This document shows, piece by piece, positions 10,346-57,944 of a stretch of DNA of 64,000 nt. Under the pieces are notes generated by a model that had not been told where the DNA came from, did not search any database, and saw nothing but the letters and a program-made list of their open reading frames with translations. The translations under genes and the position numbers were made by a program. Numbering within the stretch: the stretch's first letter is position 1; each line of letters begins with the position of its first letter. The DNA lies in assembly GCA_024679065.1 (NCBI GenBank), contig JAGIQG010000011.1, positions 4,216,001-4,280,000 of the forward strand. The letters are read 5' to 3'. The DNA comes from Sphyrna mokarran (lineage: Eukaryota).

Positions 10346-10423
10346 TAACTATTTTCACAAGAATTAATGAATGGGCTTGAGCTGTGAAGATTAAGTGCAA
10401 GTGTAAATGACTGAAGGCTAGGG

Positions 10424-19959: not shown

Positions 19960-21675
19960 ATTCTTTTACAAGATGTGGGTATTACTGACTAGGCAAGCAT
20001 TTATGCCCATTCCTTATTGCCTTGAGAAGGTGGTGGTGAACCCACAGGTACATCCAGAGTGCTGTTAGGAAGAGAGTTCAGGATTTTGACCCTGTAGTGA
20101 AGGAACAGCGATATGGTTCCATGTCAAGGTTGTACGTAGCTTGTAGGGGATCTTCCCGTGTATCTGCTGCCCCTGTCCTTCCAGGTGATGGAGGTCACTG
20201 GTTTGGAAGGCGCTGTGGAAGGAACCTTGGTGAATTGCTGTAGTGCATCTTGTAGATGGTACACACTGCTGCCATTGAGCCTTGGCGGTGGAGGGAATGA
20301 ATATTGAAGGTGGTGAATGAGGTACCAATCAAATTTTGCATTATTGGAGCTGGAGTCTTCCAGGTAAACAAAGTGCATTCCATTAAATTCCTGATTTATT
20401 CCTTGTATGTTGTAAACAGCTTTGGGGAGTTGAAATTCACCACAGAATTCCTAGCCTTTGACCTGCTTTTGTAGTCACAGCATTTATATGGCTGATCAGT
20501 TCAGCTTCTTGTCAACAGTAGCCCTCAGGATGTTGATAATGGAGGATTCAGCGAAAGTCGTGCAATTGAATGTCATGGGGGAATGGTGAACTCCTCTTGT
20601 TGGAAATGGTCATTGCCTGCCACTTATTTGCCCAAGCCTGGATGTTGTCTAGATCTTGCTGCATGTGGGTATGGACTGTCTCAGCACCTGAAGTTACAAA
20701 TTGTACCGGACATTGTACAATCAACAGTGAACATCCCTATTCCTGAGTTTATAATAGAGGGAAAGTCCTTGATGAAGCAGCTGATTTGGTTGGGCTCGGG
20801 CACTATTCTAATGCTGAATTAATTGAGCTGCAACAGTCACACCTGTGCTGTGTTATGCTATTTATGACTGAGCAGTGGAGAGTCCACTCCCGCCTCCAAC
20901 TCCCATTGACTTCAGTTTTGCTAGGGCTCCTTAATGTCTCACCGACTCAAATGCTGTTTTGATGTCAAGTCACTCACCTCTTGAGATCAGCTCTTTTGTC
21001 CTTGTTTGGACCAAGGCTGTAATGAGATCAGGACTTCGGTGCTCTGACAGAGCTCAAACTGAGTGTCAGTGAGGTGCTGCTTGATGGCACTGTTGGTAAC
21101 TTGTATAACTTTGATGATCGAGAGTAGACTGGTGGGGAAGTCATTGACTTAGTTGGCCTTGTCCTGCTTTTTGTGGACAGGATATACCTGCCAAGTGGAT
21201 GGCAGTGTTGTAACTTCACTAGGGACGTGGCTAGTTCTGGAGCATAAGTCTTTACTAATTTTGGAATGTTATCAGCGTCCTTAGCCATTTTAGTTTCCAA
21301 TGCCTTCAACTGTTTCTTGATTGCACATGGAGTGAGTTGAGTTAACTGAAAACTGGTATCTGTGACACTAGGGACCTTGGGAGGAAGCTGAGATGGATGA
21401 CTGAATCAGCACTTCTGGCTGAAGATAGCTGTCAGTTGTTTATCCTTGTTTTTTGCACTGATGCGCTGGACTCCTCCATGATTATAGATGGGGATATTTG
21501 TGAAGCTACCTCTTCCAATTAATTGTTTAATTATACAGAACAGTTTGTGGTTAGATGTGGCAGAACTGCAGAGCTTGGATCTGACCAGTTGGTTGCAACA
21601 TCAGTTAGCTCTGTCTGTTGCATGCTGCTTCTGCATGCTGATAGTCCTGAGTTGCAGCTTCTCCAGATTGACACA
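19960..21675 (-). mobile_element. Decayed CR1/L2-group LINE ORF2 and 3' end
   Basis: Minus ORF 21028..21309 KAL..K..D.DNIPKLVKTYAPELATSLVKL resembles the pre-RT motif of non-LTR elements; same 3' end recurs at about 40935 and 63720. Confidence 0.8.
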
Positions 21676-22226
21676 TGAGCTTGATAACCTGCTTAGACAA
21701 GGAAGAAATCATTGTATGGATAAGTGTTCTTTCTTGCTCCAAAGCATAAATTGCTCTTGTTTTGGGGTAAATAGGTAATTTTACTTTGCAACAACAAATT
21801 TGAAGGATGGAGTGTGTACAAATTTATCTTGTAATCCAAGTGTTTTCGGAGAGACTGAGGAATTGATGTAGAATAGAGATTTTGTTTTACTGTAACTATA
21901 TGTATGTATTGCTGTTGGGGTGCAATGTAGTTTCCTTTCCTAGCATTACCATCAACTAACTTGTGTAGGGGAAAATCTTGTCTAAAATATAAAAATGGGA
22001 GAGCATCCTGTTTATTCAATTGTGTTTGTATTAAAAGTATTTTTCCAATAAATTAAGTGGTAATTTTAGTAAATTTTGAACTATCAAATTTAAACTAAAA
22101 GCCCTATACAGTTGATGCAATCTGCTTGTGTAATTTCTCAGTATATTTAGGAAATATAAAATGATTGTGTATTTCTTTTTCATTCCAACTTGAGTTTAAA
22201 TTTAATTGCTTTTTTTTGTTTCACAG

Positions 22227-22369
22227 ATTACTTTATCTACTACAGCAAGAGACATCGACAGTGGAACTTAAAACTGAATGTGCAGTAGTATTAGGAAGTC
22301 TTGCAATGGGCACAGAAAATAATGTCAAATCTTTGTTAGATTGTCACATAATTCCAGCATTATTACAAG
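22227..22369 (+). CDS. ARMC8: ARMC8 coding exon 4
   Basis: tttcacag|[47 protein letters not shown](G)|gtaatg; 143 nt. Confidence 0.97.
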
Positions 22370-24000
22370 GTAATGTTATTTTGAATGCATGTGCATTAAC
22401 GATTAAATGATCATCATTCTGGTTTGTTTGTGATGTATTCCAAGCTGAACAATATGACAAATGGCCATTTACTTAGTTTAATGAAAAGCTGCTTCTGTGC
22501 ATATTCCTGACATAACTAGATTATAGGAGGTACTGAATATCAGATAGTTTTTTAAAGTTTATTTTTGGGATGTGAATGTTATTTGCGAGACCAGGTTTTT
22601 TTGCCCATTGTGCCTGCTGTCTGGAAGAGCGACTCATCTGATCCCACACTTTCACATTTTCCTCAGCCTTGCAACTCTTCTTACTTCAGATAATTATACA
22701 ATTGTCTTTTGAAGGCCTCAATTCAATCTGTCTCTGCACTTCTCAGAAAAGCATTCTAGATCCTATTCGTGTGCCATATAGAAAGGATTTTCCTCACGTC
22801 TCTGTTGTCAGTTGCTTTTGGTTCTTGACATTTGTCAATGGCAATGGTTTCTCTCTATTTACTCAGTCCAGACTTCTCACAATAGAGCTAAGCCTCATTA
22901 TGCCTCTTGGCTGATTTACTTGGTTTCATTACTTTGTTGAGACAGCTTGCCTTAAGGAAAACATTACTTGTTTGACAGTTCTTTCTCTCTGATGTATTCT
23001 GCCAATTGCATATTTTTTATTCACTCTAAGATAAAAGTTGAAAAAGTATGGATGATTTATACTTTTATAGGTCTATAGTAAAAACTATTTTTATGAGTGA
23101 AAATTTTAAAGGTTTTTAACATGCTGTTGTTACTAATATGGTTAGTTGGTTCTATGTGGGTGAATGGCATGGAAATGATTGTCATGGATTATATGAGGAG
23201 TCATAAGAGGTAGATGGGGGTGCATGAGGTGGCATGAGCTCACATGGAGGGGTGTGAGGGCAAGAGGGTTGTTTTTGTTTTGTTTCAGTGATTTTTTTTT
23301 TTATAAATATGGGAAGAAATCTCAGAGCACTGAGGCAGGCTTTTTGAACATCCATCTCAGTGCCTGATTGCTCAGGTTGGCTGCTTCTGAATTCTTTCTG
23401 GTGATGGCAGGTCTGACTCCTGTTATCGCTGTACCCAAACCACAGGATGGAAATCTTGCCTTTGCAGAACCTTTCCCCCAAAGTGGGTGTGCTGAGCCGG
23501 GAAATTGATTCCTGTCAACTACCTTGAAAGTGAAAATCCAGCCCTTAATCTTCCTCTGAAATTATGAAAAATGACTGTTCACTATTTTGTTTCCTATTGC
23601 TCAGCCAAATTTGCATCCATGCTGCCACTGTCCATTTTATTCCATGGGCTTCAAATTTGCTGACTTTGTGTAGGCCTTTGTCAAATGTCTTTTGGAAGTC
23701 CATGTTCATGACATCAATCTCATTACCTTCATTAACCCCCTCCATTACCTCATCAAAAGCTCATTCAAGTTAGTTGGACATGATTTCTCCTTAAATATGG
23801 GCTGGCTTTCCTTAGTTAATCCTTATTTATCCAAGTGACTTTTAATTTTGTCCTGAATTATTGTTTCTGAAAGTTTTCTCACCACTGGTCATAAGCTTTG
23901 TGGATTGCAGTTGCTGGACTTATTCTTGCACCCTATTTTTGAACAAAGGTGTAACATTTGTAGTTTTCCAATTATTTGGTTCCTGCATCACAGAGAGAAT

Positions 24001-24440
24001 GGGTGATACAGTGGTTGGCATTGCTGCCTCACAATGCCAGGGACCTAGGTTCAATTCAAGCCTCGGGCTTTAAAAAAGTTTATTTGTTAGTGTCACAAGT
24101 AGGCTTATTAATACTGCAGTGAAGTTACTGTGAAAATCTTCTAGTTGTCACATTCTGGCGCCTATTTGCATATAAAAGGGAAAATTTAGCACAGCCAATC
24201 CACCTAACCTGCACGTCTTTTACTGGGTGAAGTTTGCATGTTCTTTCCCTGCCTAGATTTCCTCCAGGTGCTCCAGTTTCTTACCACAGTCCAAATGTGT
24301 GGGTTAGGTTGATTTGCTGTGCAAAATTGCCCCTTAGTGATGGGGGATTAGCAAGGTGTTTATGGGGATAGGGCCTGGCTGGGTTTGTTATTTCAGACTC
24401 GATGGTCAGCTGGCCTCCTTCTGCACTGTAGGGGTTTCTG
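24001..24440 (+). mobile_element. HE1-like SINE containing an antisense V-SINE tail fragment (about 24071-24220)
   Basis: Head 24001-24070, inserted antisense block aagtttatttgttagtgtcacaagtagg..., body resumes at about 24221. Confidence 0.8.
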
Positions 24441-24448
24441 TTATAATG

Positions 24449-24544
24449 TAAACACAGTAAGAATTCTGACAACACCAGGTTTAAGTCCAACCGATTTATT
24501 TGATAGTGTTTACCCCAGTCCAATGCTGGCATCTCTACATCATG
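24449..24544 (+). mobile_element. Short Penelope-terminus insertion with a 5' inversion and a perfect 13-bp TSD
   Basis: TSD TTCTGTTATAATG at 24436-24448 and 24545-24557; first ~58 nt antisense, remainder sense relative to the family. Confidence 0.8.
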
Positions 24545-25776
24545 TTCTGTTATAATGGCCAGAGTCTGCACAATTTCTACACGCACTTCCCTTGGTATAC
24601 TTTGATTCTGCATGTCCGATTCTGATTACTTACCAACTGTAATTACAGTCAGCCCGTTGAATACTGCAATTTGTAAGCCATCCAGTGTTTCAGTTACCTC
24701 TTATTTTACTATAACTTGGGCATCATCTTTGTTAATGACAGATGCAAAGCACTGAGTTTGCGTCTCAGCCATGCTTTCTGTCCTGATTCATAACTCCTCT
24801 TTCAAGTCCCCAGTTAGCTATACTTTCCTTTTACTATTTATATAAAAATAGACTTTCATATTACACTTTTATATAAGTAGTCTCTGCACATAACCTCTCT
24901 TTCTTTCTCTCATTTCTTTTTTCCCTCTTTTTATAATTGGCATGATTCTCAGTTGTAATATTCTGATGTCAATCATATGTACACTTTTTCTGCTTTGGAT
25001 TTATTTGCCTTACATTTCTCTTTTGATGTATACAAGCTATCTCCTCTTCTTGAAGACAGCCAATTGTTCTGTTACAATTTTGTCAGCTAATTTTTTGATT
25101 GCAATTAATCTGGGCTGGATGTTCTCTCCCCATTGAAGTTAGTCCTTCCCCAATTAATCTTTTCTAACTCTGGATTGCTCCTTGTTCTTTTCCATTGCTG
25201 ACCTAAACCTTATGATACACTGCTAATCACTGTCCTCATTCCTCGTTGGGCCAGAAACACAATTCTGAAAATACTCAACATCATTAACTCTCTTCCTTTT
25301 CTACTCTTTGCACCAGTTGCAAATTTGTTCCCTATATCTTTCCCTTTAGATGATGGCTACGATATACCTAACACTGTAATTTCACTTCCACTGTTTCTCA
25401 ACTCTAACCAAATAAATTCTGTCCTTGACCCTTCTGGGACATCATCTTCCTAAGATGTCTGTGATATTCTCATTAATTAGTATTGCTACTCCTTCCATTT
25501 CCTTTTATTCCCTAAATTTTCAGAGGACTTAATATCCTAGAATATTAATGCTCAGTCCTACCCTTTTTTTTTCAGTCAGAACTGTTATCATGACATATTT
25601 TCACTGAACCTGCAGTTCACTTAGTTATTCACTGCACATGGTGTAATTGCATGTGTGCACATGAACTTAATTTAGATCTTAAAGATTTAGATTTTGTAAC
25701 AAATATTTAACTGGAGAGTTGTTGGATTGAGATAAATAATTGAGTGTAATAATTTCTCCTTTTATCCTTGAAATAG

Positions 25777-25874
25777 GTCTCCTCCTTCCGGACCTGAAAT
25801 TTATTGAGGCTTGTCTTCGATGTCTTCGCACAATATTGACAAGCCCTGTGACACCAGTGGAGGTACTTTATACA
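25777..25874 (+). CDS. ARMC8: ARMC8 coding exon 5
   Basis: aaatag|[32 protein letters not shown]|gtaagt; 98 nt. Confidence 0.96.
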
Positions 25875-25954
25875 GTAAGTACAACATTTCAAATGCCTGA
25901 GTAGATTTTGTAGTTGTTGCATCTCTGTTTACAAGAGTATTTCAATTCTTTGAT

Positions 25955-26155
25955 CATAGAATCTACAGTGCAGAAGGAGGCCATTTGGCCTATCAAGCCT
26001 GCACCAACAACAATTCCATCCTATCCCCCTAACCTCACAAATCTGCCCTCTGACATAAGGCACAATATATCATGGCCAATCAATGTAATTTGCACATCTT
26101 TGGACTGTGGGAGGAAACCCACTCAGACACAGGGAGAACGTGCAGTCACCCAAGG
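25955..26155 (-). mobile_element. HE1-like SINE, partial
   Basis: catagaatctacagtgcagaaggaggccatt...gcacatctttggactgtgggaggaaacc. Confidence 0.75.
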
Positions 26156-26533
26156 CCAGATATCTTATTTAAAGACATTATTTTGTGATGAGACACAAAT
26201 TTTATTTTCCCCGCTCTGTTCTTATTTTTAACTAGTTTTTCATTTGCTCCGTTCATTTAAACAGGAGTTCTTACCCAAAGGGCATAAGGCCAACACATAT
26301 TTCTGGAAGGCTTCTCTTGCATTGCCTCTTGCTGGCTGACATAGTAGCAAAATTGTTGCCTGCTTTTAGCTATAAATAATGTAGTGCTTCTTACAATCAA
26401 CTAGCAAGGATAAGAAACTGAGGTGGAGGGAGTGAGGGAACGTGCACATTGGTGTGTTGGAAGTTTCAGGAAACCCGGTTATTTCCTAAAGATGTACAGT
26501 ATTTTAATTTTTTTTGTTTTGATACTTCCCTAG

Positions 26534-26626
26534 GATGTTACTGTGGTTCCACATCTCATGTCCTTGCTTAGTAGATCTCGATATACACAGGAGTACATCT
26601 GTCAAATTTTCTCCCATTGTTGTAAG
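26534..26626 (+). CDS. ARMC8: ARMC8 coding exon 6
   Basis: ccctag|[31 protein letters not shown]|gtaaga; 93 nt. Confidence 0.96.
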
Positions 26627-27132
26627 GTAAGAAACTTTACAAACAAAATTCACGATTTCTATTAAAGGCACACAAACTGAAAAATCTTCAATTATCATTG
26701 CTGACATTTTAACTGTAATCTCAAAATCTGTCATAAATCATTTTAATTATTGTGTTAAACCATATATAATGAATCTGTAACACATTTGACAAAACTAGTG
26801 TGAACAGTTGTTCTTGGAAAAGCATGTGCAAGCACTTGTAACTTGAATTTATTCCACAGGAATCTGTGATCTTTTCTCTTTGTGTTTGTGCTTTATTTCA
26901 CTGAAATGGTGAAGGAATCCAAGGATTTTAGATAAGTTTATTTCAGCTCAGGGACCAATCAGCAGTGATGGGATGAAACTTAATTTGACCAATTTTAACT
27001 GATGACAGAATAGCAGCACAAATTTGTCTAATTTGACAAAATGGGTGTCTTTTAGTTTAGGTGGGGAGAAATGTTAGTGGAAGAAAACTATCTAAGGCAA
27101 ATGGGAAGAAGTAACTTTATCCTTCATGTTTT

Positions 27133-27415
27133 GAGTTTATTTATTAATGTCACAAGTAGGCTTATATTAACACAGCAACGTGAAAATCCCCTAGTCGTTA
27201 CATTTTGGTGCCTGTTCAGGTATGTTGGAGAATTTAGCATGGCCAATCCATCTGACCCGCACGTCTTTGGACTGTAGGAGGAAACTGGAACACTCAGAGG
27301 AAACCCATTCAAACACAGGAAGAATGTGTAGCTTCCTCACAGTCACCCAAGCTGGGAGTTGAACCTGGGTCCCTGGCGCTGAGAGGCAACAGGTTAACCA
27401 TTGTCCCACCATACC
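27133..27415 (-). mobile_element. V-SINE (alternative tail), near full length
   Basis: agtttatttattaatgtcacaagtaggctta...gaacctgggtccctggcgctgagaggcaacaggttaaccattgtcccacc. Confidence 0.82.
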
Positions 27416-28546
27416 AGCCCGTGGCCTGTTTTGTACTCAATTTGCAGTGTTTATGTTGCAAAAGAAGGGCAATATTTCATTTTTCACCTAGATATAAGGT
27501 ATTTAGTTTTGGGTGGAATAGATGCATCCCATTTGATCACACTTTTGGATTTTGACGCCAAATATTCTCAGCTTTAATTTCACTGTTCACTCTAGAAACT
27601 GACCTTTTTATTCTCACCGGAAGATGCTGTAGATTGACGAATAGCAAGGTAAATGTAGCTTGACCCACCAGCTAGCCAAAGAACTGTACTCTGACTGATT
27701 AGAATGTGCCACATGCCTGATCATCTTTACTTTAGAAGGCAGAAGAATGTGTATCAGATTTGGGAATGGATAGAAACCCAAATTGATGATAAATAAAACA
27801 TATTTAACTTTAAAGTCAATGCCTGGAATTGGGACAAACCTTTATTTATCTCCTATATTTTTGCTAGCTTCCCATGGAGATGAAGTCAGCCATATTTATT
27901 ATCCAGAATAGTAAAATTAATATTATTTAACAGTGTTCAGTGTTTTGTCAGTTACAACATTCAAAAGTTTAGCTTAAATAAATATAGATGCTACTTCATA
28001 AACATCTTTACTTGGATATTTCTTTCAGCTTGGAAAATTAAAAGTCTGACTTTAATCCTGAGGTTTGTGACTGATGAAAAGGAATCCAGTTTAAAAAAAA
28101 TCCATTATAACAAAAATGTGTCAATTTGTCATCACCCTACACGGGTGGGGGGAAGAATTGTCCTTCTTTCTTCAGCAACTCTATACAGTTTTGACATTTG
28201 AAGAATTCAAGGAGGCATCATGTGGTGCTCAAGCATTTGCTGCAGATGCACCTTCTGATTAGTTGCTTGTACAGGAATTTCTGACTGTGTGGGATTATCA
28301 TTGCCACAATTTACAGTTTCAAGCAGATTGTTGATGTATTTTGGGCAGTGGTACAAATTTAGGTTCTCAGTAACCTTCAGGTTCTCAGTAGTCTTGAGGT
28401 TTGTGGAGGTCTCTGAAGTGAAGTTCATGAAGTATGTTGACCTGAATCTGAGAAACCCTTGGACAAAGTAGGTTTTCCTTTCTGTCTCAAACCTTCACTA
28501 CCCAGTGGAAAGCCATTTGTATTTGCTTTCAAGTTGATTTTAATGA

Positions 28547-28856
28547 GGGTGGCACAGTGGATAGCACTGCCGCCTCTCAGTGCCATGGATCCAGGTTCAG
28601 TTTCTGCCTTGGATCATTGTCTGTGTGGCATTTGCACATTCTCCCTGCGTCTGAATGGGTTTCCTCTGGATGGTCCGGTTTCCTTCCATAGTCAAAGATG
28701 TGCGGGTTAGGTTAACTAGCCATGCTAAATTGCCCTTAGTGTCAGGAGAACTCAGGGTCAGGGTCAAATATTGGAGTTATGAGGATAGGGTGGGGTTGTT
28801 GTTGGTGCAGGCATGATGGGCTGAATGGCCTCCTTGTGCACTATAGTGATTCTATG
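28547..28856 (+). mobile_element. Full-length HE1-like SINE
   Basis: gggtggcacagtgg A-box, ggttcag B-box remnant, V-domain, CR1-derived tail gggctgaatggcctcct...gattctatg. Confidence 0.85.
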
Positions 28857-28899
28857 TTCGATGTGCTTACTTAAGTGACTTAATAAATGTCTTCAGGCA

Positions 28900-29420
28900 T
28901 TTCAGAAGTGCAGAAGTGAGGGAGTGATTGAAGACACCATTGAAAATGTAGAATTTGAGGAAGCTTTTCTAAGTTTAGGGAGCAATGTAAGGAGAAGGTT
29001 TGAGCTGAGGGTGCAAATGTTTGAAAATATTTAAATAACGCAAGGTAAGATAACACAAAGCAAAAGTCAGAAACCTTGACACAGAGGACTCTGGTTCTGT
29101 AGTTTGGATAGGACAGGCCATGGAAGGATTTATGCATGATAGGATGTAACCAGCATTTGAGGGAGCTGAGATGTATGGCAGGATGGAGCATGGCAGATTA
29201 GAGAATAGAGAAGAAACTGAACTTGTGTGTGATGAAGGTGGAGGTGGGGCAGAGGTTGAAATAAGCAGAAGTATATTGGATAGAATTTGGTGCTTTGAAG
29301 TTCAACCAAGTGTTAAATGTATGAATGTAGTTGCTTGCAGTTGTATTGAGTCATAGAAGAAGTGGATAGAATTGAGATTTTGGATGCAAAGTTATTTCTG
29401 GGAGTTGAATATATGTTAGG
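28900..29420 (-). mobile_element. Old L2-like LINE fragment
   Basis: Purine-rich antisense L2-type sequence (ggaaggatttatg...gagaatagagaag...aggttgaaataag). Confidence 0.45.
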
Positions 29421-31841
29421 CATGGATAGCTGCAGTACCATATTGAGAACTTGATTTTCTGTTTATCTGTTTTTACTCCATTTGGGCAATATCTGTTTTT
29501 GGCACTTGCCTTTTGTGTATTGAGGGCCCCATAAATCTCAACCATCTCTGCTGCATGTTCCATGTTACAATTTTGACTTCCAATAATTTTAACGTCTGTT
29601 CACAGAACAAAGAAGATTTTTTTCAAACCTTTGATGTTGTGAACTGAATAGCATATCACAGAGTAGGCACTGCCATTTTACTGTGAAGTTACACAGCAGA
29701 GCAGCCTATTTGTGCAGCTCAAAAGGCAATAATTATTCTTGTTGAATCAAGGCTTAAAATAATACTAGATTCATTTGCAAGCAACATAATTGCACAAAAA
29801 TAGATGCAGCAATGCACCAGTAATATAATATCTGATAAGATGTAGTCAAACATCTTGGATGAAATAAATGTGATCCAGTGACTTGGCTCATATAAAGTTG
29901 TATTCTCATCTTTGAAATCCGGATATATGTAGTGGTAGGTTGGATGGGTTTTCCAGCATGGAAGGCATCGGATTATTAATCATTGTTACCATTTTGGTAT
30001 ACAGAGGTTTCTTAATAAATTAGATTTTAAGACATTGAGTGTGAATATTCCCCAAATTTAAGTTAATGGTTAACCAGTTGCGTTAACAGTTTTCCAAATG
30101 CTCTAGTCGGTGGGGTGTTTTGGTGCAGGTGACCTGGGAGATGATGGGTGATGGGGATGGTCGCACTGAAAGCGAAATCGTACTGACACCAGTGGGACCA
30201 GAAGATCCCATTGCCAGCTGATAGTGGGCCGCTTCTACTGCCTCAAAATGCACCGCTGCGGGGAATGTGGAAAATCCAACCAAACATCTCAAAAGGAGTT
30301 GAGCTAGCTATTGTATAATCCTGCAACAAAACTAATTTGCCAATATCAGAAATATTACAAACAAAGGAAGCTAGTTGAACCACGTTATTCTCAACAACAA
30401 ATCTATCTTGACAATTTTATCTACTGGATGTTCATGAAGCAGTGAAGCTGCATGTTCAGAAATAACAGCAAATATTTTTTCCTCCACATTTATTTGTCAG
30501 TCTAAGGTCTTGCAAAATGATACAATCTAGAAGTTCTCCCTATTTGTGGCAAATCAAAGTTCTGCTTCTATTGTACATTGGTTCGGTTCTGTATTCAGAA
30601 GGGGGAAGTTAATTATGTTGTCTGGTACTTGAACTAAGCACTGTTTGTTAGGACTGTTGACTAATGCAATGGCATCACCCCATTGCTGCCTCTACTTGCA
30701 CTGTATCACAGATCTGATTCAGAACTGCCAAATAAGGATGATTACATCCCAACTCCTTTTGTATTGTCCTCCTCACTTCCACAATACAACATAATGCTTC
30801 TGAATACTTTTAAGCTTCAAGTTGGAAAGATAAATTGTGGAGAACTAACCTAATAACAGTGCTTGTTAAAAGGAAATTCCTAGGCATAGTAAGAGGAATT
30901 AAGATTGGGCCAAGTTAGCGTGGTGGATTGTGTGATGCTGTGGGAGAGGAAATTGTGATTTATAAGCAATGGCAGTGAGTTGATGTCTTCTGGTTGATTA
31001 ACATGGATTCTAGTGTAAAACAAAAGCTCAATATTATACTTTCCAATTACTAATCAGTAACTGAATTTATTTTACATTATACATTTCCAATTTGTACTTG
31101 GTTGTGTTTAATTGTATTTGTTTTCTACCAGATTGGCTCAGTTAATGGCAATTCTGAGTCTGAGTTCCTCACTAGAGGATGTTGAATGCCCAATTTTATA
31201 ATTTAACAATGAGTACTGGCTGTTTCTGAGTACTCCTTTTTATTTGCATGCTATTACTGATTATATTTAATTACAGTATTAGATTGTTGCACCTCATGAC
31301 CTAGTAGTAATTCTCATGGTAAAGCGATGATTTTTTACTGTCTTTCAATCATCAGGTATTTAAAATTCAAGTTTAATGCTTCTTGTTCCCCATCTCCTAA
31401 TTTACTTTGTCTTCTCTTTTGCTCATCTGTCTGTATTTCTGACTAAACCAATTCAATAAGAAGAACTTGAAGTTATTAATATGGGTTACTTTTAATCTTT
31501 GTTATTGACTGGCCTTTTGCTGCAGCTTCATTTTTAAAATAACGGTTCAGCTATTTTTAAGTTTATTGTTGACATAATGTAAGGAGTATTGTTTTAACGA
31601 CATTTGAAGAAAACTCAACCTTTTTTTTGAAAATATACAATTTTTAAGTCAATTCCTTTCTGCATGGATAGATTTTATCCTTTGAATCCAAACTAAAAAT
31701 GGGCTATGTGTGCCCTTCAAGTCTTAACCTTATAGTGGTGTTTAATACATGGATGATTTTTTTCCTGTTTTCCCTCTTTAAACTTTGCTTTGGCAAGTGA
31801 AGTGGAACAGAAATATTAAATTGTCTCTTTGTCTCTGTTAG

Positions 31842-31922
31842 ACTCCGGAGCACCAGGCTGTGTTGTTCACCCATGGTGCAGTTCAGAACATTGCCCATCT
31901 ACTGACTTCATCTTCATACAAA
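31842..31922 (+). CDS. ARMC8: ARMC8 coding exon 7
   Basis: ctgttag|[27 protein letters not shown]|gtaagc; 81 nt. Confidence 0.96.
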
Positions 31923-32863
31923 GTAAGCGCTTGAAAATTATGTAGAGAAGAAATATTTGGTAAAGATATTTTAAGTTTGACCAAGACCCCTAGAGTAAGA
32001 ATTTGTGTACTGCACTCTGTAACAGAAATGTCCAATTTTTTGAAGAACAGTTTTATTTTTGAAAGCAGACATTCTTTTGAATTATCTCATAATGGTCTAA
32101 GCCTTTTTTGATGTATCTTTGTCTATTATCTGTGCTGTTCAACAGCATTCTAGGAAAATGTCAAACTGTTTCAAATGATAGGGAACCAGCTAGGGGATGC
32201 AGTCAGGATTTTATACGTTTCACTGAGACTCCCTCTCGTTCGAATGAATACAAATCTAGTTAACCTAATCTCTGCTCGTATGACAATCCTGCCATTCGAG
32301 GAATCATTTGAGGTGAATCTTTGTTGCACTCCCTGTATGGCAAGTATATTCTTTCTTAAGTAAGGAGACCAAAACTACACAGCATACTCCAAATGTTGGT
32401 TCACCAGGACCTTGTACAGCAAGACACCTTCGTGCCTGTACTCAAATCCTCTTGTAATGAAGGCCAGCATATCATGTACCTTCATGATCAATGAGCAGAA
32501 GTAACAGTGGGGGTGGAAAAAGTCAATTCTTATGATGCAGGGAGTATTGGGTCTGACATTTAGTGCAAGGTTAATTGAATAGGATGTTGAGGTTGCAAAT
32601 AGTCTACCTTAACCTACAGTGGCTAATGAGAGGGATTAAGTTGGCAATGACAGCTTCCCAATGTTAAGCTTGATGAAAGTGTCCTTTCTAAGACTGGACG
32701 TTTGGAAAGAGAGATATTGTGGAAGGGTTGAAGTAGCAGGAGAGGCAGAGCTGGGTCCTACCAGCATAAATGTGAAAAGTGACCATCAAAACTTAATCTT
32801 AAACTGTCTAAAATGTAAAAATATTGACAACTGAAGTATTTATTCAATTTTGTTTCTCAATAG

Positions 32864-32939
32864 GTTCAGATGCAAGCATTAAAATGCTTTTCAGTCTTGG
32901 CTTATGAAAATCCACAAGTTTCTTTGACTCTTGTAAATG
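32864..32939 (+). CDS. ARMC8: ARMC8 coding exon 8
   Basis: caatag|VQMQALKCFSVLAYENPQVSLTLVN(V)|gtgagt; 76 nt. Confidence 0.96.
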
Positions 32940-33540
32940 GTGAGTAGTGTATTTTGTTGAGTTCCTCTGTCTACTTATTTTCTCTGTTCTATATCTTTTC
33001 TAGAAGCATGACTTGTTACATTTTACATAACTAGAATGTATATGGAATCCAGTGTGTAAGTTGAACTTTATTAGTATTTTTATTGAGATATAACCAGCAT
33101 TTTAGTAGAATATTTTTCATGGGGCTGTTCAATCAGATACAGATCTGATGTCTTAAGTAGTTTTGTTCTTATAAATTTCGATAAACCAATTTTATAAAAG
33201 GAACTTAAAATCAATTCAATATGCTTTCCCTCTACATGAACATTGTTTCTCTGAAGTAATGTTTATTTGTGATCAGAGGCACCCTCTGGTGTTCTAGGCG
33301 TGTGATTGCATTAATGTTGCTCTTCTATCCTTTGTAGGATTCAAAGCCACAGGTGATTTTCACATTAATATTTGATTGTGTTTTATTAGCTGATATTTGC
33401 TTATTTTTGTTTAAGTATGATTAATCCAATGTTTGCTGTTTCTGTCAGTGAAGTGAAAGCTGCTACAAAACCAGTGCAAGCATCCTCTGTCAAAGACTTT
33501 GCTTGCAACTTCTCCAGTAACTCATATTTTTCTGTTTTAG

Positions 33541-33631
33541 TGTTGGTGGATGGTGAGTTATTACCCCAAGTATTTGTGAAGATGATGCAGAGGGATAAAC
33601 CTATTGAAATGCAGCTGACATCTGCAAAATG
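33541..33631 (+). CDS. ARMC8: ARMC8 coding exon 9
   Basis: gttttag|[29 protein letters not shown](C)|gtacct; 91 nt. Confidence 0.95.
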
Positions 33632-33885
33632 GTACCTATTCATTTTTTTTATTACTGACATTTTGTTAAAGGTGCATATCTTGCCATTTAAATTAAATAG
33701 ACAGGTAAATTGTTTCCACAACTGTTCCAAACATTATGGTTTATCCTATAATATTTGAAGATATTTGCTTTGTTCTTAATGTGTCAGCAGAGTTTATTAT
33801 CTACTTGATATAATTAACAAACACAATGAATACTGAACATTCCAGTTATTTCTGTAAGTTATATTACAATTTTATTATTTTACAG

Positions 33886-33946
33886 TTTGACTTACATGTG
33901 CAGGGCTGGTGCAATCCGGACAGATGATAACAGTATAGTTTTAAAG
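33886..33946 (+). CDS. ARMC8: ARMC8 coding exon 10
   Basis: tttacag|LTYMCRAGAIRTDDNSIVLK|gttggt; 61 nt. Confidence 0.96.
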
Positions 33947-34493
33947 GTTGGTATGAGGTTTCAACAGTATAATCAACCTATTTGCACGCTCTCTCTCTCT
34001 TCCTCTCTCCCCCCCCACCCCCACCCTCCCTTCAATATCTCAACTATAGTCAGAATCACAGCTGAGATATTGTACAAGAAAAATATTCTTCTTCAATGTG
34101 ACGAAAAATCTGAGTATCCGCGTTGGGAAAAGAAGTGATGAATAGAAATCACTTGATTCCGATTGAGAAAATTCTGTTAAAGTAAGGCTGCTTCAAGATG
34201 TTCCATCTTGTTTCAAAATCCAGGATGATGACGTTCCATGTTTTCTTGCTGTTTCTCTTCTTCACAGTAACAATAGGCAAGTTAAGTTGTATAATTGAAT
34301 CAGTTATTCTTTGTCTTGCTTAAGAACAATTTGGGTCTGAAGCAAACACCAGGGATTTCATTTGGAGAGGGTTTGAGCAGAATGTACCCATGGGTGCAAA
34401 TAAATGCACTGTTATTTCATAAGCGACTATCATTCATTAAACAGTTTTTCCTTTTTATCTTTCTGTTTTAGCAAATAAACTCTTCAAGTTCAC

Positions 34494-35098
34494 TGGGCAA
34501 TTCTTCCAATCGCTCTTTCCACCCTCTGCCAGGAGTGATTCACTCCACTGCGGTTTACAGTAGCTCCCCGCTAATAGGGAACTAGTGGCTGAGATCAGGG
34601 GAAAGAAGCAGTGCCCCCTGGGCTTTGCCAGTCTGGCTCACTGGGAATTTCCAAGAGACACCTTTGCACTGCTCACAGGGCATCAGGGCAGTGCCAAGGA
34701 GGTGGGGCCTATGGGACAAGACCTGTTGGGAGCAATCGATGCCACTCTGCAATTAAGATCAGTAGCAGAGGAAGTGAGGACAATTGGCCCAGACACATGG
34801 AAGGCCAGTGATTAGGAGGTGGGGGGGATCAGGGATGCAGCGATTGGGAGGTTGGCAGTACGGGGCTACTGCGCATGCTCCAATTTCTGTCCTGACAGAT
34901 TGGTGCATGCGCAGAGACCCGTTCAGTGCAATGCTGTCAGCTTCCCCCTCGGGAATAGTCTCCCCAACCCCGGATTTTTATCGTGATTCACGCTGATGCA
35001 CTCTGCAGTACTCAGTGTCAGAGATTCATTTTGCAAGTGAGTAACTGTGGTTTTTATACAAATTCAGTACTTTGTTTTTCTGGGAGAATCCTGGTCCC
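34494..35098. mobile_element. GC-rich MITE-like repeat with a central hairpin
   Basis: Degenerate inverted ends gggcaattcttcc / gggagaatcctggtccc; internal palindrome at 34869-34914; similar GC-rich fragments at about 12880-13110, 23120-23545 and 30090-30290. Confidence 0.5.
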
Positions 35099-36879
35099 CA
35101 TGTATATGCCATGTAAATGAATATACCCAGTGGAGTTACTATTACTCGTTTTTATTTACTAATCAGAAATACAATTGACCATTTCTGGATTTCCAATTAG
35201 CTGCAGTATGGCTTGGAGCCTAATGTACCTAATAAAGATAAATTAGGTACCTCCTGTACCTAATAAAGAAAAAATACAGTGCCTCAGCATGCAGTTCCTG
35301 TTGTGTTTTTGCTTTTCTTTTATAAATTTCAGTCTCTGCATTTTTACTGGAATCCATATTCCAACTATGACGTGAATGCCAAACCTTTGACAGGAGTGAA
35401 GGTGGCGACCATAATGGAATGATCAGTATCTATTTTTTAATGGTACATCTTCATTCTGTCACTGGAGACCCTTTGGCTTACATGGTTTGCCCAGAGATTT
35501 TGCTTGGAGGATCAAGTGTTTGTGAATTCTGTTTTGTTCAGCAACAAGTGTGGTATCTTATCCGTGGCTCACATGTATTTGCTTTGGTCACTTCCCCAGG
35601 CAATGAGGACCTTTTGCGTATGTCTTGTGTCAATTGCTTAAGGAAGTTGTATTTAGCCACTTGCTTCATACTCTATTTACAAGATTATTGCTTCTTTACA
35701 ACCTCTAGAACCACATACACAGCCTGGAAAGACTTCTGCATTTGTCTGTTATAGAATGATAATACAGTTTAAATACTGCTGAGGAATATGGACACTAGGC
35801 TATTCCATTGTAACTTTTCTTACGAGTCAAAGAATGGCTACTAAAAATATATAAGTACAGGATAGAATGGTCTACCTGTATCTTCCTACTGGAGTTGAGA
35901 ACTCTGGTTGGTGACCACTTTGTAAAGTTTGGTCATGTGATATTGTAACCACAGTGATGCCTGAGCAGGTGACACCCACATGTGTCACTGTTTTTCTGTC
36001 CTTGCTTCTATACATTCCGGTTTGGCCTCAACTTCTTTGTAAAGGTGTACGCTCGGATTTGGGGACCTCAGTCATAGCTGATCAGTACCTGAATGTCACA
36101 TGCCTAAACTATCAGGTTGGAACAAACAAATTGAGAGATTACTCCAAATTATTTCCCCAATCATTTGGACACTTCTCAAAAGCAAATCATCCCAAACTCT
36201 GCTCTGCACCAATATCTTTTTGAAGCACTTTTGAGATTTTTCATACAATGATGGAAATTATATTTCATAGGGCCACTTGGCATCTTTTGCCAGTGTTTGT
36301 TTTTGCTCCTGTAATCCATTCCCTTCAGATTTTTTTACATTTCTTTCCAAATATTTGTTCCACTTCAAATGGTGATCTAATCTCTATCTCGATGATCACT
36401 CAAGTGCATTTGTGGTTCAAGTTGTTCTCAGTTCGAGAATCCTCCTCCCATTCCTTGTTTCCTCCAATTTTCCCCACTTTTTCGAACCTATTTTCTCCTC
36501 AGCCCTCAGTTCACACCTTCCTCCTCCACTGTCTTTTACCTCCTTCCAGTGGACATTTGGAAAGGTTGGAAACGCTCCAAGTCACCAGTCTCCGTTTTTA
36601 GTATCTAGTGAAATGATTTAAGAAAAAATACAGATCATGTATATTCCCCACACATACATGTTTGAAAAAGAAAATTGCCTTTCGGTCTTACCAGATAATA
36701 GATTAGACCTTGCTGGAAAACTACTGGTGTACAGTAAATGATGTACATCACTACTAAAGTACGAATTAAGCAGTGTGTTCTGGGATCTTGCTGATCATTT
36801 TATGCTAATTCACTGTTTGCTTTGCACAAGCATCTCCCTTTTTTTGATAAACCTGTAGTTTTCACATTTGCTCACTTTT

Positions 36880-37215
36880 TTCTTCTGTGGGATGCAGGCA
36901 TAGCTGGCAAGGCCAGCATTTGTTGCCTATTCCTAATTGCCTTTCAAATAGGGTGGCTTGTTGGCTGTTGCAGAGGGGAATTAAGGGCCAGTCGCATTAC
37001 TGAGGGACTGAAGTCACATAGACAGGACCAGACGAGATGGCAGATTGCCTTCCTTGAAGGACATTAGTGAATCAGGTTTTTTTTAATTTGACAGTGAATG
37101 ATAGTTTTGTGATCATCATTACTGAGGCTGGTTTTATATTCTATATTAACTGAATCGAAATGCCATCAGCTGCCTTAGTGGGATTACTAGTCCATGGCAT
37201 TATCACTCCATCTCG
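36880..37215 (-). mobile_element. SINE sharing its 3' end with the 19960-type LINE
   Basis: gggatgcaggcatagctggcaaggccagcatttgttgcctattcctaattgcc...ggattactagtcca; related copies at about 55600-55872 (-) and 50580-50860 (+). Confidence 0.7.
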
Positions 37216-38151
37216 CCTTGTTAAATTTGTGCAGAAAATTTTAGAGTGCAAAACCTCTTTTACGAGAATGTAGTAATTGTTAATACAATTCCAATCAATC
37301 TGTCTGAGACAGAATTGAAATACTTTAAATTGTTCAGTTTCTTTTTTGCATTTCGTTGAATGTTAAAGATTTTGAAAATTATTTCAGTTGTTTGGGATTT
37401 CTTTTTCATTTCCTTCAATTTTTTTTTAGTCTTTTGTGACCTTAATTTATTTTTCTCTATCTGGTTTTGATTCTTAATTCATCCTCCTTTATTGTACCTT
37501 TTTCTTTCCCAATCGTTAAGTTAACAAGATGGACAGTTGGCCCCACTGTTAACTGTAGTCCTGAATATACCTTTGCAAACACCACACCGTTAAAAGCTCA
37601 CATTTCCAGCAAACTGCGTTGCAAAAGATTTTCTAACTGAAGTTTGTAGAAGGGTTTAGTTAATTGGGCACAGTGTGAGATGTCGTGCTTCAGCAAGATC
37701 TGGTCAATTCTACGGTCAAACTGTTTCCCTTGGCAAATTGTCCATAGAAATCAACTAACGTACTATGTGACATTTTTGTTGTGTCAATTTACTCCCCTCT
37801 GAAATATATCTATGATCAGCTGGTCATGTTATATAACTTTGTGGGTCCAACTAATGGAAAGTAAAATACAGTTTGAAGGAGGACTTTTTTTAGTGTGCTG
37901 CTTTGCCGTCATGTAAATGAAGATCAGGTAGACAGTGGATCACAACTGCAGTTCACAAGTCACTTGTGAAATGCAGTTGTGATTCACTATCTATTTGGTC
38001 TTCATTCACATGATGACAGAGCAGCACACTAAAAAATCTAACCCTGAAAAAATCCCATATAAATGTTCAATTGGGTTTCCCAAGAATTTTCACTGATAGT
38101 TATGTATTGCAAATATCCTGGTTAACCTCAGCGAAACTTTTGTCTGTTTAG

Positions 38152-38352
38152 ACACTCCCATGCCTCGTTAGGATGTGCAGTAAAGAGAGGCTGCTGGAGG
38201 AACGGGTGGAAGGTGCTGAAACCTTGGCATATCTGATAGAACCTGATGTCGAGTTGCAGAGGATTGCCAGCATCACAGATCATCTTATTGCGATGCTCGC
38301 TGACTACTTTAAGTATCCAAGTTCTGTCAGTGCAATCACAGACATCAAAAGG
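38152..38352 (+). CDS. ARMC8: ARMC8 coding exon 11
   Basis: gtttag|[67 protein letters not shown]|gtaagt; 201 nt. Confidence 0.97.
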
Positions 38353-39163: not shown

Positions 39164-39259
39164 CTTGACCACGACCTCAAACATGCTCATGAACTTCGCC
39201 AAGCTGCATTCAAGTTGTATGCCTCCCTTGGAGCAAATGATGAAGACATCCGGAAGAAG
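39164..39259 (+). CDS. ARMC8: ARMC8 coding exon 12
   Basis: ccttcag|[32 protein letters not shown]|gtgagt; 96 nt. Confidence 0.97.
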
Positions 39260-39325
39260 GTGAGTCTGGGAGAGGGGCGTCCCCCGGTCCTGGCAACCAA
39301 CAGGCAGGGAGTGACGTCAACCTGA
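39260..39325 (+). CDS. ARMC8: ARMC8-beta-specific C-terminal extension (read-through of the exon-12 donor)
   Basis: In-frame [21 protein letters not shown] then TGA at 39323-39325; closely resembles the recalled human short-isoform tail [21 protein letters not shown]. Confidence 0.85.
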
Positions 39326-39715
39326 GAACAAGGTGAAGAGAATTAACAGTGACTTTACGAAAGAGCATAATCAGATCTGAAGAATGAATGGGATTGAGAC
39401 TCATTTGTCTAGAGAAATGAGTTGTGACGTGTTCATGTTGGAATGACAAGTACTGGTGTTTCCTGTGTTGAACCTTCACCGGATCCTTAAATTACATTCT
39501 TTGCATGAGTTCGTAACAGTAGTAACAAAATAAGCACTGTGAAGTGTAGTGTATAGTACTGACTCACATAATGCAGTGGTACTGTAATGCCAGTTATATA
39601 AATGCTTGCCTACCTATCTGCTGCAAACCGGAAGTACTCAGCTTCTGTTTCTGTATCACTTTTAATTTGTGGCCTGCTGATGTGTTCATTTGTGTTGCTG
39701 ATGTGCAAGTTTAAT

Positions 39716-39762
39716 TGTAAATAAAGCTTTGTGCAATGACATTGCTGGTAGCTTGTTTTCTG
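39716..39762 (+). terminator. Candidate intronic polyadenylation site for ARMC8-beta
   Basis: TGTA immediately followed by AATAAA (39720-39725), CA at 39740-39741, downstream GT/T-rich tract (gcttgttttctg). Confidence 0.65.
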
Positions 39763-52021: not shown

Positions 52022-52104
52022 ATTATTGAGACTGAAAATATGATGGATCGAATTGTGACTGGCTTAGCTGAGTCTAGTATCAAGGTGCGGTTAGCTGCTG
52101 TCAG
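52022..52104 (+). CDS. ARMC8: ARMC8 coding exon 13 (long/alpha isoform)
   Basis: gttatag|[27 protein letters not shown](R)|gtatgg; 83 nt. Confidence 0.96.
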
Positions 52105-55012: not shown

Positions 55013-55094
55013 ATGTTTGCACAGTCTATCCAGATCAGTACAGCAACTCCGGACAAGTTTTCAGGATCATACTGTGTGGAAACCACTAATGAAG
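55013..55094 (+). CDS. ARMC8: ARMC8 coding exon 14
   Basis: ttcatag|[27 protein letters not shown]|gtaggt; 82 nt. Confidence 0.97.
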
Positions 55095-55989
55095 GTAGGT
55101 AGTAGCATGCATTTTAAGAAGCATTAATTATATTGAACTTTCAGAATTAACTTTAAATGTTTTGTGTCTCAGTAGAGCTCAAGCTATTAGGAAATTAATT
55201 TGTTTGTTGCCACTAACTTGAGAAATGTAATGTAGACGTGAAAATTAAATAAGTTATTTATCTGCCAATAAAGGTCACTGGTGCATTGAGGAAATCACCT
55301 GCAAAATTCAGTCAAGGATCTGTCAAGTGTACAACTGGTTTGTGCTTGAGTGAATACTGGCATATAAATGATGGGTCTGATTTTAAAAAAAAACGCTGGA
55401 ATTAACTTACAATCCAGCAGTGAATACTTATCTAAAGATATAATGATCATACTCAATCAATTGTTCTATATTAACAAGACCTGTTAAGAACAAAAAGGCA
55501 GCAAATTTGGGTGTAACAAGTTAGAACTTCTAAAATCGCATACTCAGAATGCAAAATTTGTGATCAACAAATTGTAGATAAAATGAGTATTTTACTGTCT
55601 TTTTCATGAGATGTGGGCATCATTGACAAGGCCACTATTTGTTCCCTATTCCTAATTGCCAGACTGGGAAAGGATGGCAGATTTCTTTCCATAAAGGGCA
55701 TTACTGAACCAGATTTTTGTTACAATCAATGATAGTTGTCATGTCACCATTACTGAGAAGAGTTTCATATTCCAGATTTATCAATCAAATTCAAGTTCCA
55801 CCAGCTGCCCCAGAACATTAGCCTGGACTTGTGGATTACTAACTCAGTGATGTTACCACTGTGTTACCATCTCTGACAGTACTGAGCACACTTAAGCTAT
55901 AGTCTGAATGGTGGAAAAGACTAAGGGCTGATGGCATATTCCTGTTGCTATGTAACTATCACTGAATTTCCTACTTACCACAGAAAATA

Positions 55990-56885
55990 CAGAGGTAATA
56001 TTGCATTAATGGAAGCCATTCAGCTCATCAATCCTGCATCTGCTCTCTTGAAGGGTGACCCACTTAATCTTACTTCCCTGCTCCTTCCCCCAATGATTAC
56101 AATATTTTTTGCTTCAGTATTTATCCAGTCTCTCTTGGCCAAACTGTTCATTCCAAACTCTAATATCTATTTGTGTTGAAAAAAAGTTTTTCTATATGCT
56201 ACCTCCAATTTAAAAAAAAAATTCCCTGAAGTCTGTACTGTCTTAATCGATCCTAAGCTGTTGGAAACAATTTGTCTTGATTTCAAAAATTGCAACAGAT
56301 TATCAAATCTGTCCTTAACCTTCACTGCTTTAAGGGGAACAACCCCAGCTTCTCTACTTATGTAACCGTAATGCCATAACCATAAACCTCTTCTGTACTG
56401 TCCTCATGCTCTTCCTAATGTCGGTGTCCAGAATTGGGGCCCTACTTCATCTGGCTCCAAACTAGTGTTTTATGTTTGTTTAGCATAACTTTTTGGCTTT
56501 TATAACTTACACCTCAACTGTTTTGCGAATCTGCCCTACTAGCTTCAAAGATTTGTGCACAGATATCCAAAGGGGTCTCTCCCCTTGCATCTCTTCAAAA
56601 TTGTACTATTTAGCTTATATTATCTCTTTATTTCTCCTTCAAAAATATATCACCACACACCAAACTGTGTTAAGTTTCATTTTCCGTGTGTCACCCATTC
56701 CACCAGCTAATTTGCATCCTCGTGAGATCTATTAGATACTGAATGCTCATTAACCTAATTTGGTATATTACCAATCACCTATTTAAACTTTATATTCATA
56801 ATATCAACTGCGCAGCACTTATGCACCCTTGTTTATCTCATAAAATCCTCAATCAAATTAGTCAAACTAGGTTTCCCCTTATTAA
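55990..56885 (-). mobile_element. Decayed CR1 LINE 3' region (continues at about 58590-58950)
   Basis: gccattcagctcatc tail; gtgtccagaattg...actagtgttttat (antisense of the KTLV...QFW region). Confidence 0.65.
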
Positions 56886-56889
56886 GTCG

Positions 56890-57093
56890 TATAGAATCTC
56901 TACACTGCAGAAGGAGATTATTTGGCCCATTGAACCTGCACCGCCTTTCCAACAGAGCATTTTACCCAGTACCCCTCCCCGCCCTATTCCCATAACCCCA
57001 TACATTTACCCCACTAATCCCCCTAACATATACATCTTTAGACACTTAAGGGGCAATTTAGCATGACCAGTCCACCTAACCTGCACATCTTTG
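56890..57093 (-). mobile_element. HE1-like SINE, 3' half
   Basis: tatagaatctctacactgcagaaggag...aggggcaatttagcatgaccagtccacctaacctgcacatctttg. Confidence 0.8.
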
Positions 57094-57944
57094 GGAAAAT
57101 CCATAATACTTCACCATTATTATTCATGCTTGTCCAAAGGACTATCATTTTCACCTAGATTATTGTTTCTTTTAAGAATATTTTCATTATGTGGTTGACT
57201 CCCAACCGTTGCCCAAGGGCAACTAGGGATGAGCAATAAATGCTGACTATGTCCATGTCCAATGAATAAATAAAAAAATTAGGAGTTTTCCACTTTACAT
57301 TTACCACAAAACACAACAAATCCTCAAAATCACAGTGTAGAGTAACCATTATTCCACATAAAGCTGCAAAAAGGACCAACAGAAATGATTCCAATTATCT
57401 GTCATTGTAGTCGACGTCTCCTCTCGTACAGATAAAAGGATACAAAGAAGAGTGGGGGGGTGGTTTCAGGATAACATCATATAATCATGAATACATGGTC
57501 CCAAGGCGCACAACCTCTTCCACAATATACCTAGGACCTCCAAACAATGAGAGGATAACCCAGAAAAAAGGAAACTTCAGAATGCTGCCATCAGTACGAA
57601 ATGTAGCTTGCCAACCTGTGCTCTCATGTACAGGAACAGTAAACTAAGGATTTGTACACCTCATCTAGGCTTGCAAATCCCTCTCCTCTCCAACTGTATC
57701 AGAGGCACCGATTAGGCTCCCCATCACCAGAAAACTTAAAACCATTTTCTCACTAACAAAGAGAAGGGGAATCGTTAAGACACCCATATCTCAAGAATAG
57801 ATACAACTATCCTCCCGACAAGGTTAGGGAAACTCTCCAGGATTAACTATAAAAATCAGCCTTTATCAACATCTCATCCCACCCAAATGAAGAAAGGAAA
57901 TCCCAGAAAGAGAGGAGCATCAGATATCCAATAGATGCCAGACG

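What the first reader, a model, noticed from the sequence alone, without database searches (positions are those of the whole stretch)
39260..39762. ARMC8-beta: an intron-encoded tail and intronic poly(A) switch apparently conserved from shark to human
Seen: skipping the exon-12 donor gives 21 extra codons, [21 protein letters not shown], for a 399-aa protein, then a ~400-nt repeat-free UTR and TGTA-AATAAA with a downstream GU/U tract. The competing acceptor is 12.8 kb away. Known (recalled): human ARMC8-beta ends [21 protein letters not shown] and joins the CTLH ligase but cannot recruit the substrate receptor GID4. Inference: about 18/21 identity in nominally intronic sequence across jawed vertebrates means the alpha/beta choice is an ancient, selected splice-versus-polyadenylation switch controlling CTLH substrate-receptor loading, and the tail may have its own function.
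Basis: partly seen in the sequence, partly recalled or inferred. Interest (0 to 1): 0.8.

Follow-up and report, generated by a model that had tools for sequence, protein, structure and literature searches.

The report
Ancient short ARMC8-beta isoform switch
This shark-like fish gene carries the same 21-residue short ending as human ARMC8-beta, with a poly(A) signal at the same distance from the splice site as the mapped human end, so the known mammalian switch that keeps the adaptor GID4 off the CTLH protein-disposal machine is likely as old as jawed vertebrates.

Summary
Twelve exons give 378 codons; reading through the exon-12 donor adds 21 codons (399 aa), as in mouse Armc8-beta. The tail matches human at 18/21 and is also present in skate (20), frog (17), tuatara (14) and turtle (15, stop lost). 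It is absent from gene-model read-throughs of ray-finned fishes, including bichir, and of a crow, so it is ancient but not universal. New support: the AATAAA predicts cleavage 476-496 nt after the donor, inside the human 3'-seq peak at +453 to +498. Use of that human site shifts from 0.19 in naive B cells to 0.64 in plasma cells (supplement of Singh 2018). Conservation continues about 125 nt past the stop, with frameshifts, so part of the signal is non-coding, though the tail is more conserved than that UTR (p=0.007). The donor is strong and no RNA structure stands out. Not shown: any transcript in this animal, dN/dS, or a function of the peptide (flexible in the crystal). Verdict: orthologue of a known isoform; its age, conserved poly(A) position and lineage losses were not found in print.

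The parts
3437..38352 (+). ARMC8 coding exons 1-11 (346 codons), shared by alpha and beta
   Evidence: tblastn and AG/GT-refined model; lengths of exons 2-11 equal the human ones
39164..39259 (+). ARMC8 exon 12, 96 nt, last shared exon
   Evidence: 32/32 aa identical in all 10 tail-bearing proteins compared; human exon is also 96 nt
39257..39265 (+). Exon-12 splice donor AAG|GTGAGT, used for alpha and read through for beta; a strong site
   Evidence: U1 duplex -10.7 kcal/mol, 4th strongest of 16 donors
39260..39325 (+). Beta-specific tail: 21 codons plus TGA, 67% GC with 3 CpG
   Evidence: 18/21 to human, 20/21 to skate, 17/21 to frog
39326..39450 (+). Conserved non-coding start of the beta 3' UTR
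   Evidence: frameshift-aware alignment of the stop-less unnamed relative P0004 scores 64 over 39371-39450 against a maximum of 43 in 424 control tiles; continuous from the tail
39545..39719 (+). Five TGTA (CFIm-type) motifs upstream of the signal, at 39545, 39550, 39583, 39652 and 39716
   Evidence: the intron background is 6.3 per kb, so the excess is weak
39720..39725 (+). AATAAA, first canonical poly(A) signal after the donor (+461 to +466)
39735..39762 (+). Predicted cleavage zone (+476 to +496) and downstream GU/U-rich element
   Evidence: inferred from the usual 10-30 nt spacing; overlaps the human 3'-seq peak at +453 to +498
52022..52104 (+). Exon 13, competing acceptor for alpha, 12,762 nt from the donor
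55013..63071 (+). Alpha-only exons 14-16 (approximate ends); further alpha exons lie up to about 20 kb beyond the window

Best explanation
This is the cartilaginous-fish orthologue of the mammalian ARMC8-beta terminal exon: reading through the exon-12 donor gives a 399-residue frame with a human-like 21-residue tail, and cleavage at the intronic poly(A) signal about 480 bases on likely competes with splicing to exon 13, giving a short ARMC8 that would join CTLH without recruiting GID4. Shown here: the frame, the tail, the signal and its position, conservation of the tail and of the first 125 UTR bases. Shown in mammals by others: the isoform, its 3' ends, cell-type shifts in their use, and loss of GID4 binding. 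Inferred: because the donor is strong and the acceptor is 12.8 kb away, U1 probably binds the donor but the long wait for exon 13 lets the cleavage machinery win in a share of transcripts. The conserved GC-rich tail DNA and proximal UTR most likely carry protein-binding elements that set that share. Selection acts mainly on making the truncation at a tuned ratio; the tail codons are under extra constraint, but whether as peptide or as donor-proximal RNA element is unresolved.
For: Same 378+21 architecture as mouse Armc8-beta (passages). All 11 exon lengths from exon 2 to 12 equal human. Tail in 30 of 94 proteins with V after exon 12, covering skate, frog, tuatara, turtle and mammals. Predicted cut +476 to +496 versus human peak +453 to +498. 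Human use of that site is 0.19 in tissue naive B, 0.30 blood B, 0.45 blood T and 0.64 plasma cells. In P0004 the UTR is conserved (64 vs at most 43 in 424 tiles) while its upstream intron is not (score 21). Nine coded organisms hold 45-69% of sampled 31-mers of 39100-39900 (20 of 23 listed runs). Alpha's C-terminal exons and an intron-containing GID4-family locus are in the same genome.
Against: No transcript evidence in this animal or its relatives was obtained. AATAAA occurs once per kb in this intron, so the positional match is only p about 0.07-0.25. The donor is strong, unlike the weak donors usually recalled for such exons. In the one DNA run laid, the listed UTR contig (23 differences in 289 nt) was no better conserved than the downstream intron (22 in 642; 35 in 503), although it has half depth and may be a second allele or copy. 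The element is absent from ray-finned fish and crow models, so it is dispensable in large clades. P0004 is unnamed, so its distance from this animal is known only from its diverged upstream intron and tetrapod-like tail.
Confidence: 0.72

Rival explanations
1. The 21-residue peptide has its own function, as a binding motif, modification site or stability signal, and coding selection is the main reason it is conserved.
For: Tail 18/21 versus adjacent UTR 23/47 in the same pair, Fisher p=0.007. At UTR-level divergence (25-30% substitution) 18/21 with an open frame arises in 1% of simulations or fewer. No frameshift in any tail-bearing lineage; the turtle deletion is one whole codon. Length is exactly 21 in this animal, skate, frog, tuatara and mammals. 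TWA1 knockout lowers beta but not alpha (PMC6614414, passages).
Against: Only 9 of 21 tail columns are invariant among 8 aligned proteins, while exon 12 is 32/32. The stop is replaced by Trp in turtle and P0004. Only 5-9 tail residues are resolved in crystal 8A1I. About 8% DNA substitution reproduces 18/21 without coding selection, and the lack of indels is not significant (P0 0.07-0.26). Protein searches favour in-frame tails.
Confidence: 0.35
2. The region is a DNA-level conserved element, such as an enhancer for ARMC8 or a neighbouring gene, and the tail and UTR conservation are by-products; beta need not be made in this animal.
For: Conservation crosses the stop and tolerates frameshifts after it. 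The tail DNA is a GC/CpG-rich patch in an AT-rich intron and holds a TGACGTCA palindrome (CRE-like, motif recalled) at 39312-39319.
Against: Conservation starts at the donor, is absent in the upstream intron, and is highest in the coding frame. The poly(A) position matches human. The residues over the palindrome vary (Met in skate, Ala in P0004, Glu in turtle). No paper linking ARMC8 to such an element was found.
Confidence: 0.12
3. Beta is leakage: ordinary failure to splice a long intron with a chance poly(A) signal, with no selected role.
For: Most donors in this gene have an AATAAA within 2 kb; the element is lost in ray-finned fishes and a bird.
Against: Neutral sequence over this time would keep about 4-7 of 21 residues, as the 57 unrelated read-throughs do. 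Beta is expressed at levels comparable to alpha in HEK-293T and the two intronic sites take up to 0.79 of 3' ends in plasma cells.
Confidence: 0.04

Closest known systems
Mammalian ARMC8-beta (human 385 aa, Q8IUR7-6; mouse 399 aa, PDB 8A1I)
   Same: Same truncation point (378 shared residues in mouse), 21-residue tail 18/21 identical, same exon lengths, poly(A) position matching the proximal human site.
   Different: Here in a cartilaginous fish; expression and GID4 exclusion untested; no canonical or listed variant signal at the position of the second human site (+1503 to +1698).
Composite terminal exons made by intronic polyadenylation (Singh et al. 2018, PMC5928244)
   Same: Donor read-through, in-frame stop, intronic AATAAA in a long intron, loss of a C-terminal interaction domain.
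   Different: The donor is strong and the read-through codons are conserved across jawed vertebrates.
Secreted versus membrane IgM heavy chain switch
   Same: Intronic poly(A) site favoured in plasma cells; removes the C-terminal part; human ARMC8 shifts the same way.
   Different: No sequence relation; ARMC8 loses an adaptor-binding domain, not a membrane anchor; shared regulators are untested.
Skate RefSeq model XP_032879440.1 (113 aa, 'ARMC8-like', Amblyraja radiata)
   Same: Ends in the same tail, 20/21, so a database already holds the tail in a cartilaginous fish.
   Different: A partial predicted model, not labelled as the beta isoform.

Membership tests
ARMC8-beta isoform | Orthologous ARMC8 gene sharing the first 378 residues with alpha | tested here: met
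   315/336 identical to human P0133 over the shared part; exon lengths equal; single locus
ARMC8-beta isoform | Unique 21-residue C-terminal extension from donor read-through | tested here: met
ARMC8-beta isoform | Expressed as mRNA and protein | tested here: inconclusive
   no RNA holder on record and no contig laid from three guessed-RNA runs
ARMC8-beta isoform | Joins CTLH but does not bind GID4 | not testable with these tools
   shown for human in PMC8567238; inferred here from the same truncation point
Composite terminal exon by intronic polyadenylation | Unused donor followed by sequence up to an intronic poly(A) signal, with a downstream exon as the alternative | tested here: met
   definition
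Composite terminal exon by intronic polyadenylation | Mapped polyadenylated 3' ends at the site | tested here: inconclusive
   mapped in human at +453 to +498; none obtained for this animal
Composite terminal exon by intronic polyadenylation | Weak donor (typical tendency, recalled; not a defining feature) | tested here: not met
   AAG|GTGAGT is 4th strongest of 16 donors by U1 duplex energy
Structured RNA element or known RNA family | Folding stability above shuffles or an Rfam match | tested here: not met
   z from -0.66 to +0.59 in 6 windows; one chance-level Rfam hit, E 0.64, in 39330-41000
Conserved non-coding enhancer | Enhancer activity or transcription-factor occupancy | not testable with these tools
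   only the non-coding conservation was shown
C-terminal motif (C-degron or PDZ ligand) | Invariant free C-terminus matching a known motif | tested here: not met
   end varies (TST, MST, TPT) and the stop is lost twice; does not match the glycine or -PER/-PDR degrons named; other motifs compared from recall only

The most novel reading that the evidence does not exclude
An IgM-like intronic poly(A) switch, as old as jawed vertebrates, sets how many GID4 receptors (0-4) each CTLH ring carries, rises as B cells become plasma cells, and adds a 21-residue tail with its own binding or stability role; ray-finned fishes and birds lost it independently and are natural knockouts.
Probability: 0.22. Interest if true: 0.72.

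Novelty: new member of a known kind. Interest (0 to 1): 0.42.

Why it matters
A 2025 review calls the functional difference between alpha and beta CTLH complexes an open question (PMC12687426), and a 2022 review describes the two isoforms as a feature of the human complex (PMC9180843). Conservation back to cartilaginous fish argues that beta is selected, not noise. The work gives handles: a single poly(A) signal to delete, a 190-nt element to mutate silently versus non-silently, a cell pair with a threefold shift (naive B versus plasma cells), and lineages that lack it. GID4 is also pursued for targeted protein degradation (listing), so the alpha/beta ratio could set its reach by cell type (inference).

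Tried and rejected
No RNA holder listed in the run search; 14 small runs guessed to be RNA hold 45-67% of the words, but their kind is not on record, so I do not count them as expression. Three of these 14 were laid on 39330-40830 and gave no contig, which the tool says can be false. No read or contig evidence over the exon-tail junction and no tetrapod DNA was obtained, so expression and dN/dS stay open. An RNA hairpin hiding the donor: z about 0, donor mean unpaired 0.58, rejected. A weak donor as the cause: rejected. Rfam: nothing above chance. Frameshifted remnants of the element in 24 non-matching read-throughs: none beat its control maximum; two were matched or beaten by only 2 of 86 tiles; the three positive controls were reached only by the tile that overlaps the site. 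The turtle post-stop piece is too short to score (20; 106 of 424 tiles as high). P0177, a 787-aa repeat protein hit, looks like a chance match. No beta-type member appeared among gar, bowfin, sturgeon, koala, lizard or sea-turtle cluster members; these lists hold alpha models, so this is no evidence of absence. No fold or complex was predicted, since the tail is flexible in a solved structure and no partner is named. Earlier scan notes: none. Literature searches that found no report of beta outside mammals or of its poly(A) mechanism: (40 of 53 listed); Kobayashi 2007 was not read.

Full report
1. Observation. The window holds ARMC8 on the + strand. tblastn with full-length relatives and refinement to AG/GT ends gave twelve exons from 3437 to 39259 that encode 378 residues without a stop. 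The exon-12 donor is AAG|GTGAGT. Reading on gives [21 protein letters not shown] and TGA at 39323-39325, 399 residues in all. The competing acceptor is at 52022, 12,762 nt away. The first AATAAA after the donor is at 39720, directly after TGTA; the 10-mer TGTAAATAAA occurs once in the gene. The region is single-copy as far as the genome search sees. The animal is inferred to be a cartilaginous fish: exons 11-12 are 92/92 identical to a skate protein.

2. The known isoform. Human beta is 364 shared plus 21 unique residues (PMC6680376; parts 1-4 of 5 of the text read). Mouse beta is 399 residues sharing 378 with alpha, and its extension is flexible, with 5-9 residues resolved in PDB 8A1I (PMC9932110, passages). 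Beta joins the complex but cannot recruit GID4, and both forms are expressed at similar levels in HEK-293T (PMC8567238, passages). The human tail was checked in P0133: 18/21 identical.

3. Distribution. Of 209 proteins gathered, 94 have Val after exon 12. Thirty carry the tail; seven are spliced forms that happen to start with Val; the other 57 score at most 6/21. Named carriers are skate (20/21), poison frog (17), tuatara (14), painted turtle (15, one codon deleted, stop replaced by Trp) and mammals (17-18). Named non-carriers are gene models of seven teleost species, a bichir model that stops one residue after the donor, a crow, and a partial little-skate model that ends after four residues. 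Twenty-four non-matching read-throughs showed no trace of the element in any frame. Presence in both cartilaginous fish and tetrapods puts the origin at or before the jawed-vertebrate ancestor, with inferred losses in ray-finned fishes and at least one bird lineage. These are database gene models, and 90% clustering hides many members, so coelacanth, lungfish, gar, lizards, marsupials and lamprey are untested.

4. Poly(A) site. The supplement of Singh et al. 2018 (PMC5928244; supplement file 4, all 7 ARMC8 rows, and text passages) lists two intronic sites at chr3:137,964,478-523 and 137,965,528-723, with retained coding length 1,203 nt, which fits beta. The hg19 annotation in the IPAFinder code (PMC8559711, supplement file 2) ends the 96-nt exon at 137,964,025, so the proximal peak lies +453 to +498 from the donor. 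The AATAAA here lies at +461 to +466 and predicts a cut at +476 to +496. By chance this has p about 0.07, or 0.25 if either human site counts: modest support. No signal sits at the distal human position. Use of the proximal human site is 0.19 in tissue naive B cells, 0.30 in blood B, 0.45 in blood T, 0.64 in plasma cells and 0.29 in one myeloma group. ARMC8 does not occur in that paper's main text. So the choice is regulated in human cells, but the record sits in a table.

5. What is conserved. An unnamed protein, P0004, has lost the stop and so reports 48 codons of its UTR. These align to 39326-39450 with frameshifts; the core scores 64 against a mean of 23 and a maximum of 43 in 424 control tiles, while its upstream intron scores 21. 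The element is thus at least 190 nt long and partly non-coding. Within that pair the tail is better kept than the UTR (18/21 versus 23/47 in the best frames, p=0.007), and simulation gives 1% or less for such a tail at UTR-level divergence. The same simulation shows that about 92% DNA identity yields 18/21 with no coding selection, so a tighter donor-proximal RNA element fits too. For a peptide role: fixed length in five lineages and an in-frame turtle deletion. Against: 9 of 21 invariant columns among 8 proteins, two lost stops, and flexibility in the crystal. Tetrapod DNA would decide this and was not obtained.

6. Mechanism. The donor is strong (4th of 16) and not folded away; six windows gave z between -0.66 and +0.59. 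A weak donor or a hairpin therefore does not explain read-through. The likeliest model is kinetic competition: a 12.8-kb wait for the acceptor, a well-formed poly(A) signal 460 nt from the donor, and conserved elements in between that tune the outcome (inferred). The product keeps the part that binds TWA1 and RANBP9 and lacks the GID4-binding half (shown for mammals), so the ratio would set GID4 occupancy from 0 to 4 per ring (PMC9180843, passages). The genome has alpha's remaining exons and an intron-containing GID4-family locus.

7. Read data. Twenty of 23 listed runs, from nine coded organisms, hold 45-69% of sampled words of 39100-39900; none is on record as RNA. One DNA run laid on 39330-40830 showed 3-8% divergence, and its listed UTR contig was not better conserved than the intron, though at half depth. 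This result does not support extra UTR conservation among close relatives. Expression in this animal is not shown.

8. Novelty and limits. The isoform and its GID4 defect are known. Nine literature searches found no report of beta outside mammals, of its poly(A) mechanism, or of lineage losses; the library lacks most subscription papers, and Kobayashi 2007 was not read. Other papers seen as passages: PMC12687426, PMC6614414, PMC11364545, bioRxiv 10.64898/2026.01.14.698769 (its supplements were not examined). Supplements searched for ARMC8 only: PMC10960005 (file 1 unreadable), PMC13187750, PMC8559711 (file 1 not searched, file 2 cut). Unseen tables may already list the event as conserved. Verdict: real, a new member of a known kind, interest 0.42.

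Noticed in passing
PDB 8a1i_A: The deposited 401-residue chain has two extra Ile between the shared part and the beta tail, while the paper gives 399 residues; possibly alpha's first two residues carried into the record.
   Followed up: no
L002 (G000:C1:178313600-178315800), about 880-1530: GID4-like copy with joined exons, a frame change and an interruption, next to a retroelement-like reverse-transcriptase fragment; looks like a processed pseudogene. The intron-containing locus is on C749.
   Followed up: partly
window 39330-39722, run X16: Two half-depth contigs about 8% diverged join a full-depth contig near the poly(A) signal, while the run's word share (0.67) implies a closer copy that is not listed: a divergent allele or partial duplicate in that organism. 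Skate databases also hold three partial 'ARMC8-like' models that start in exon 11.
   Followed up: no
window 39312-39319: TGACGTCA palindrome (CRE-like, recalled) inside the tail codons; residues over it vary among relatives.
   Followed up: partly
human ARMC8, other introns: Two further intronic poly(A) events are tabulated: a skipped terminal exon at chr3:138215238-138215631 rising from 0.19 to 0.72 with LPS, and a poison exon with a poly(A) site near chr3:138272526. Their counterparts here were not sought.
   Followed up: no
window 38394 and 52246: AATAAA also lies 42 nt after the exon-11 donor and 142 nt after the exon-13 donor, showing how common the hexamer is in this gene.
   Followed up: no
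window 2780-3420: GC-rich, repetitive stretch just upstream of the ARMC8 start codon; likely promoter or 5' UTR region with short tandem motifs.
   Followed up: no
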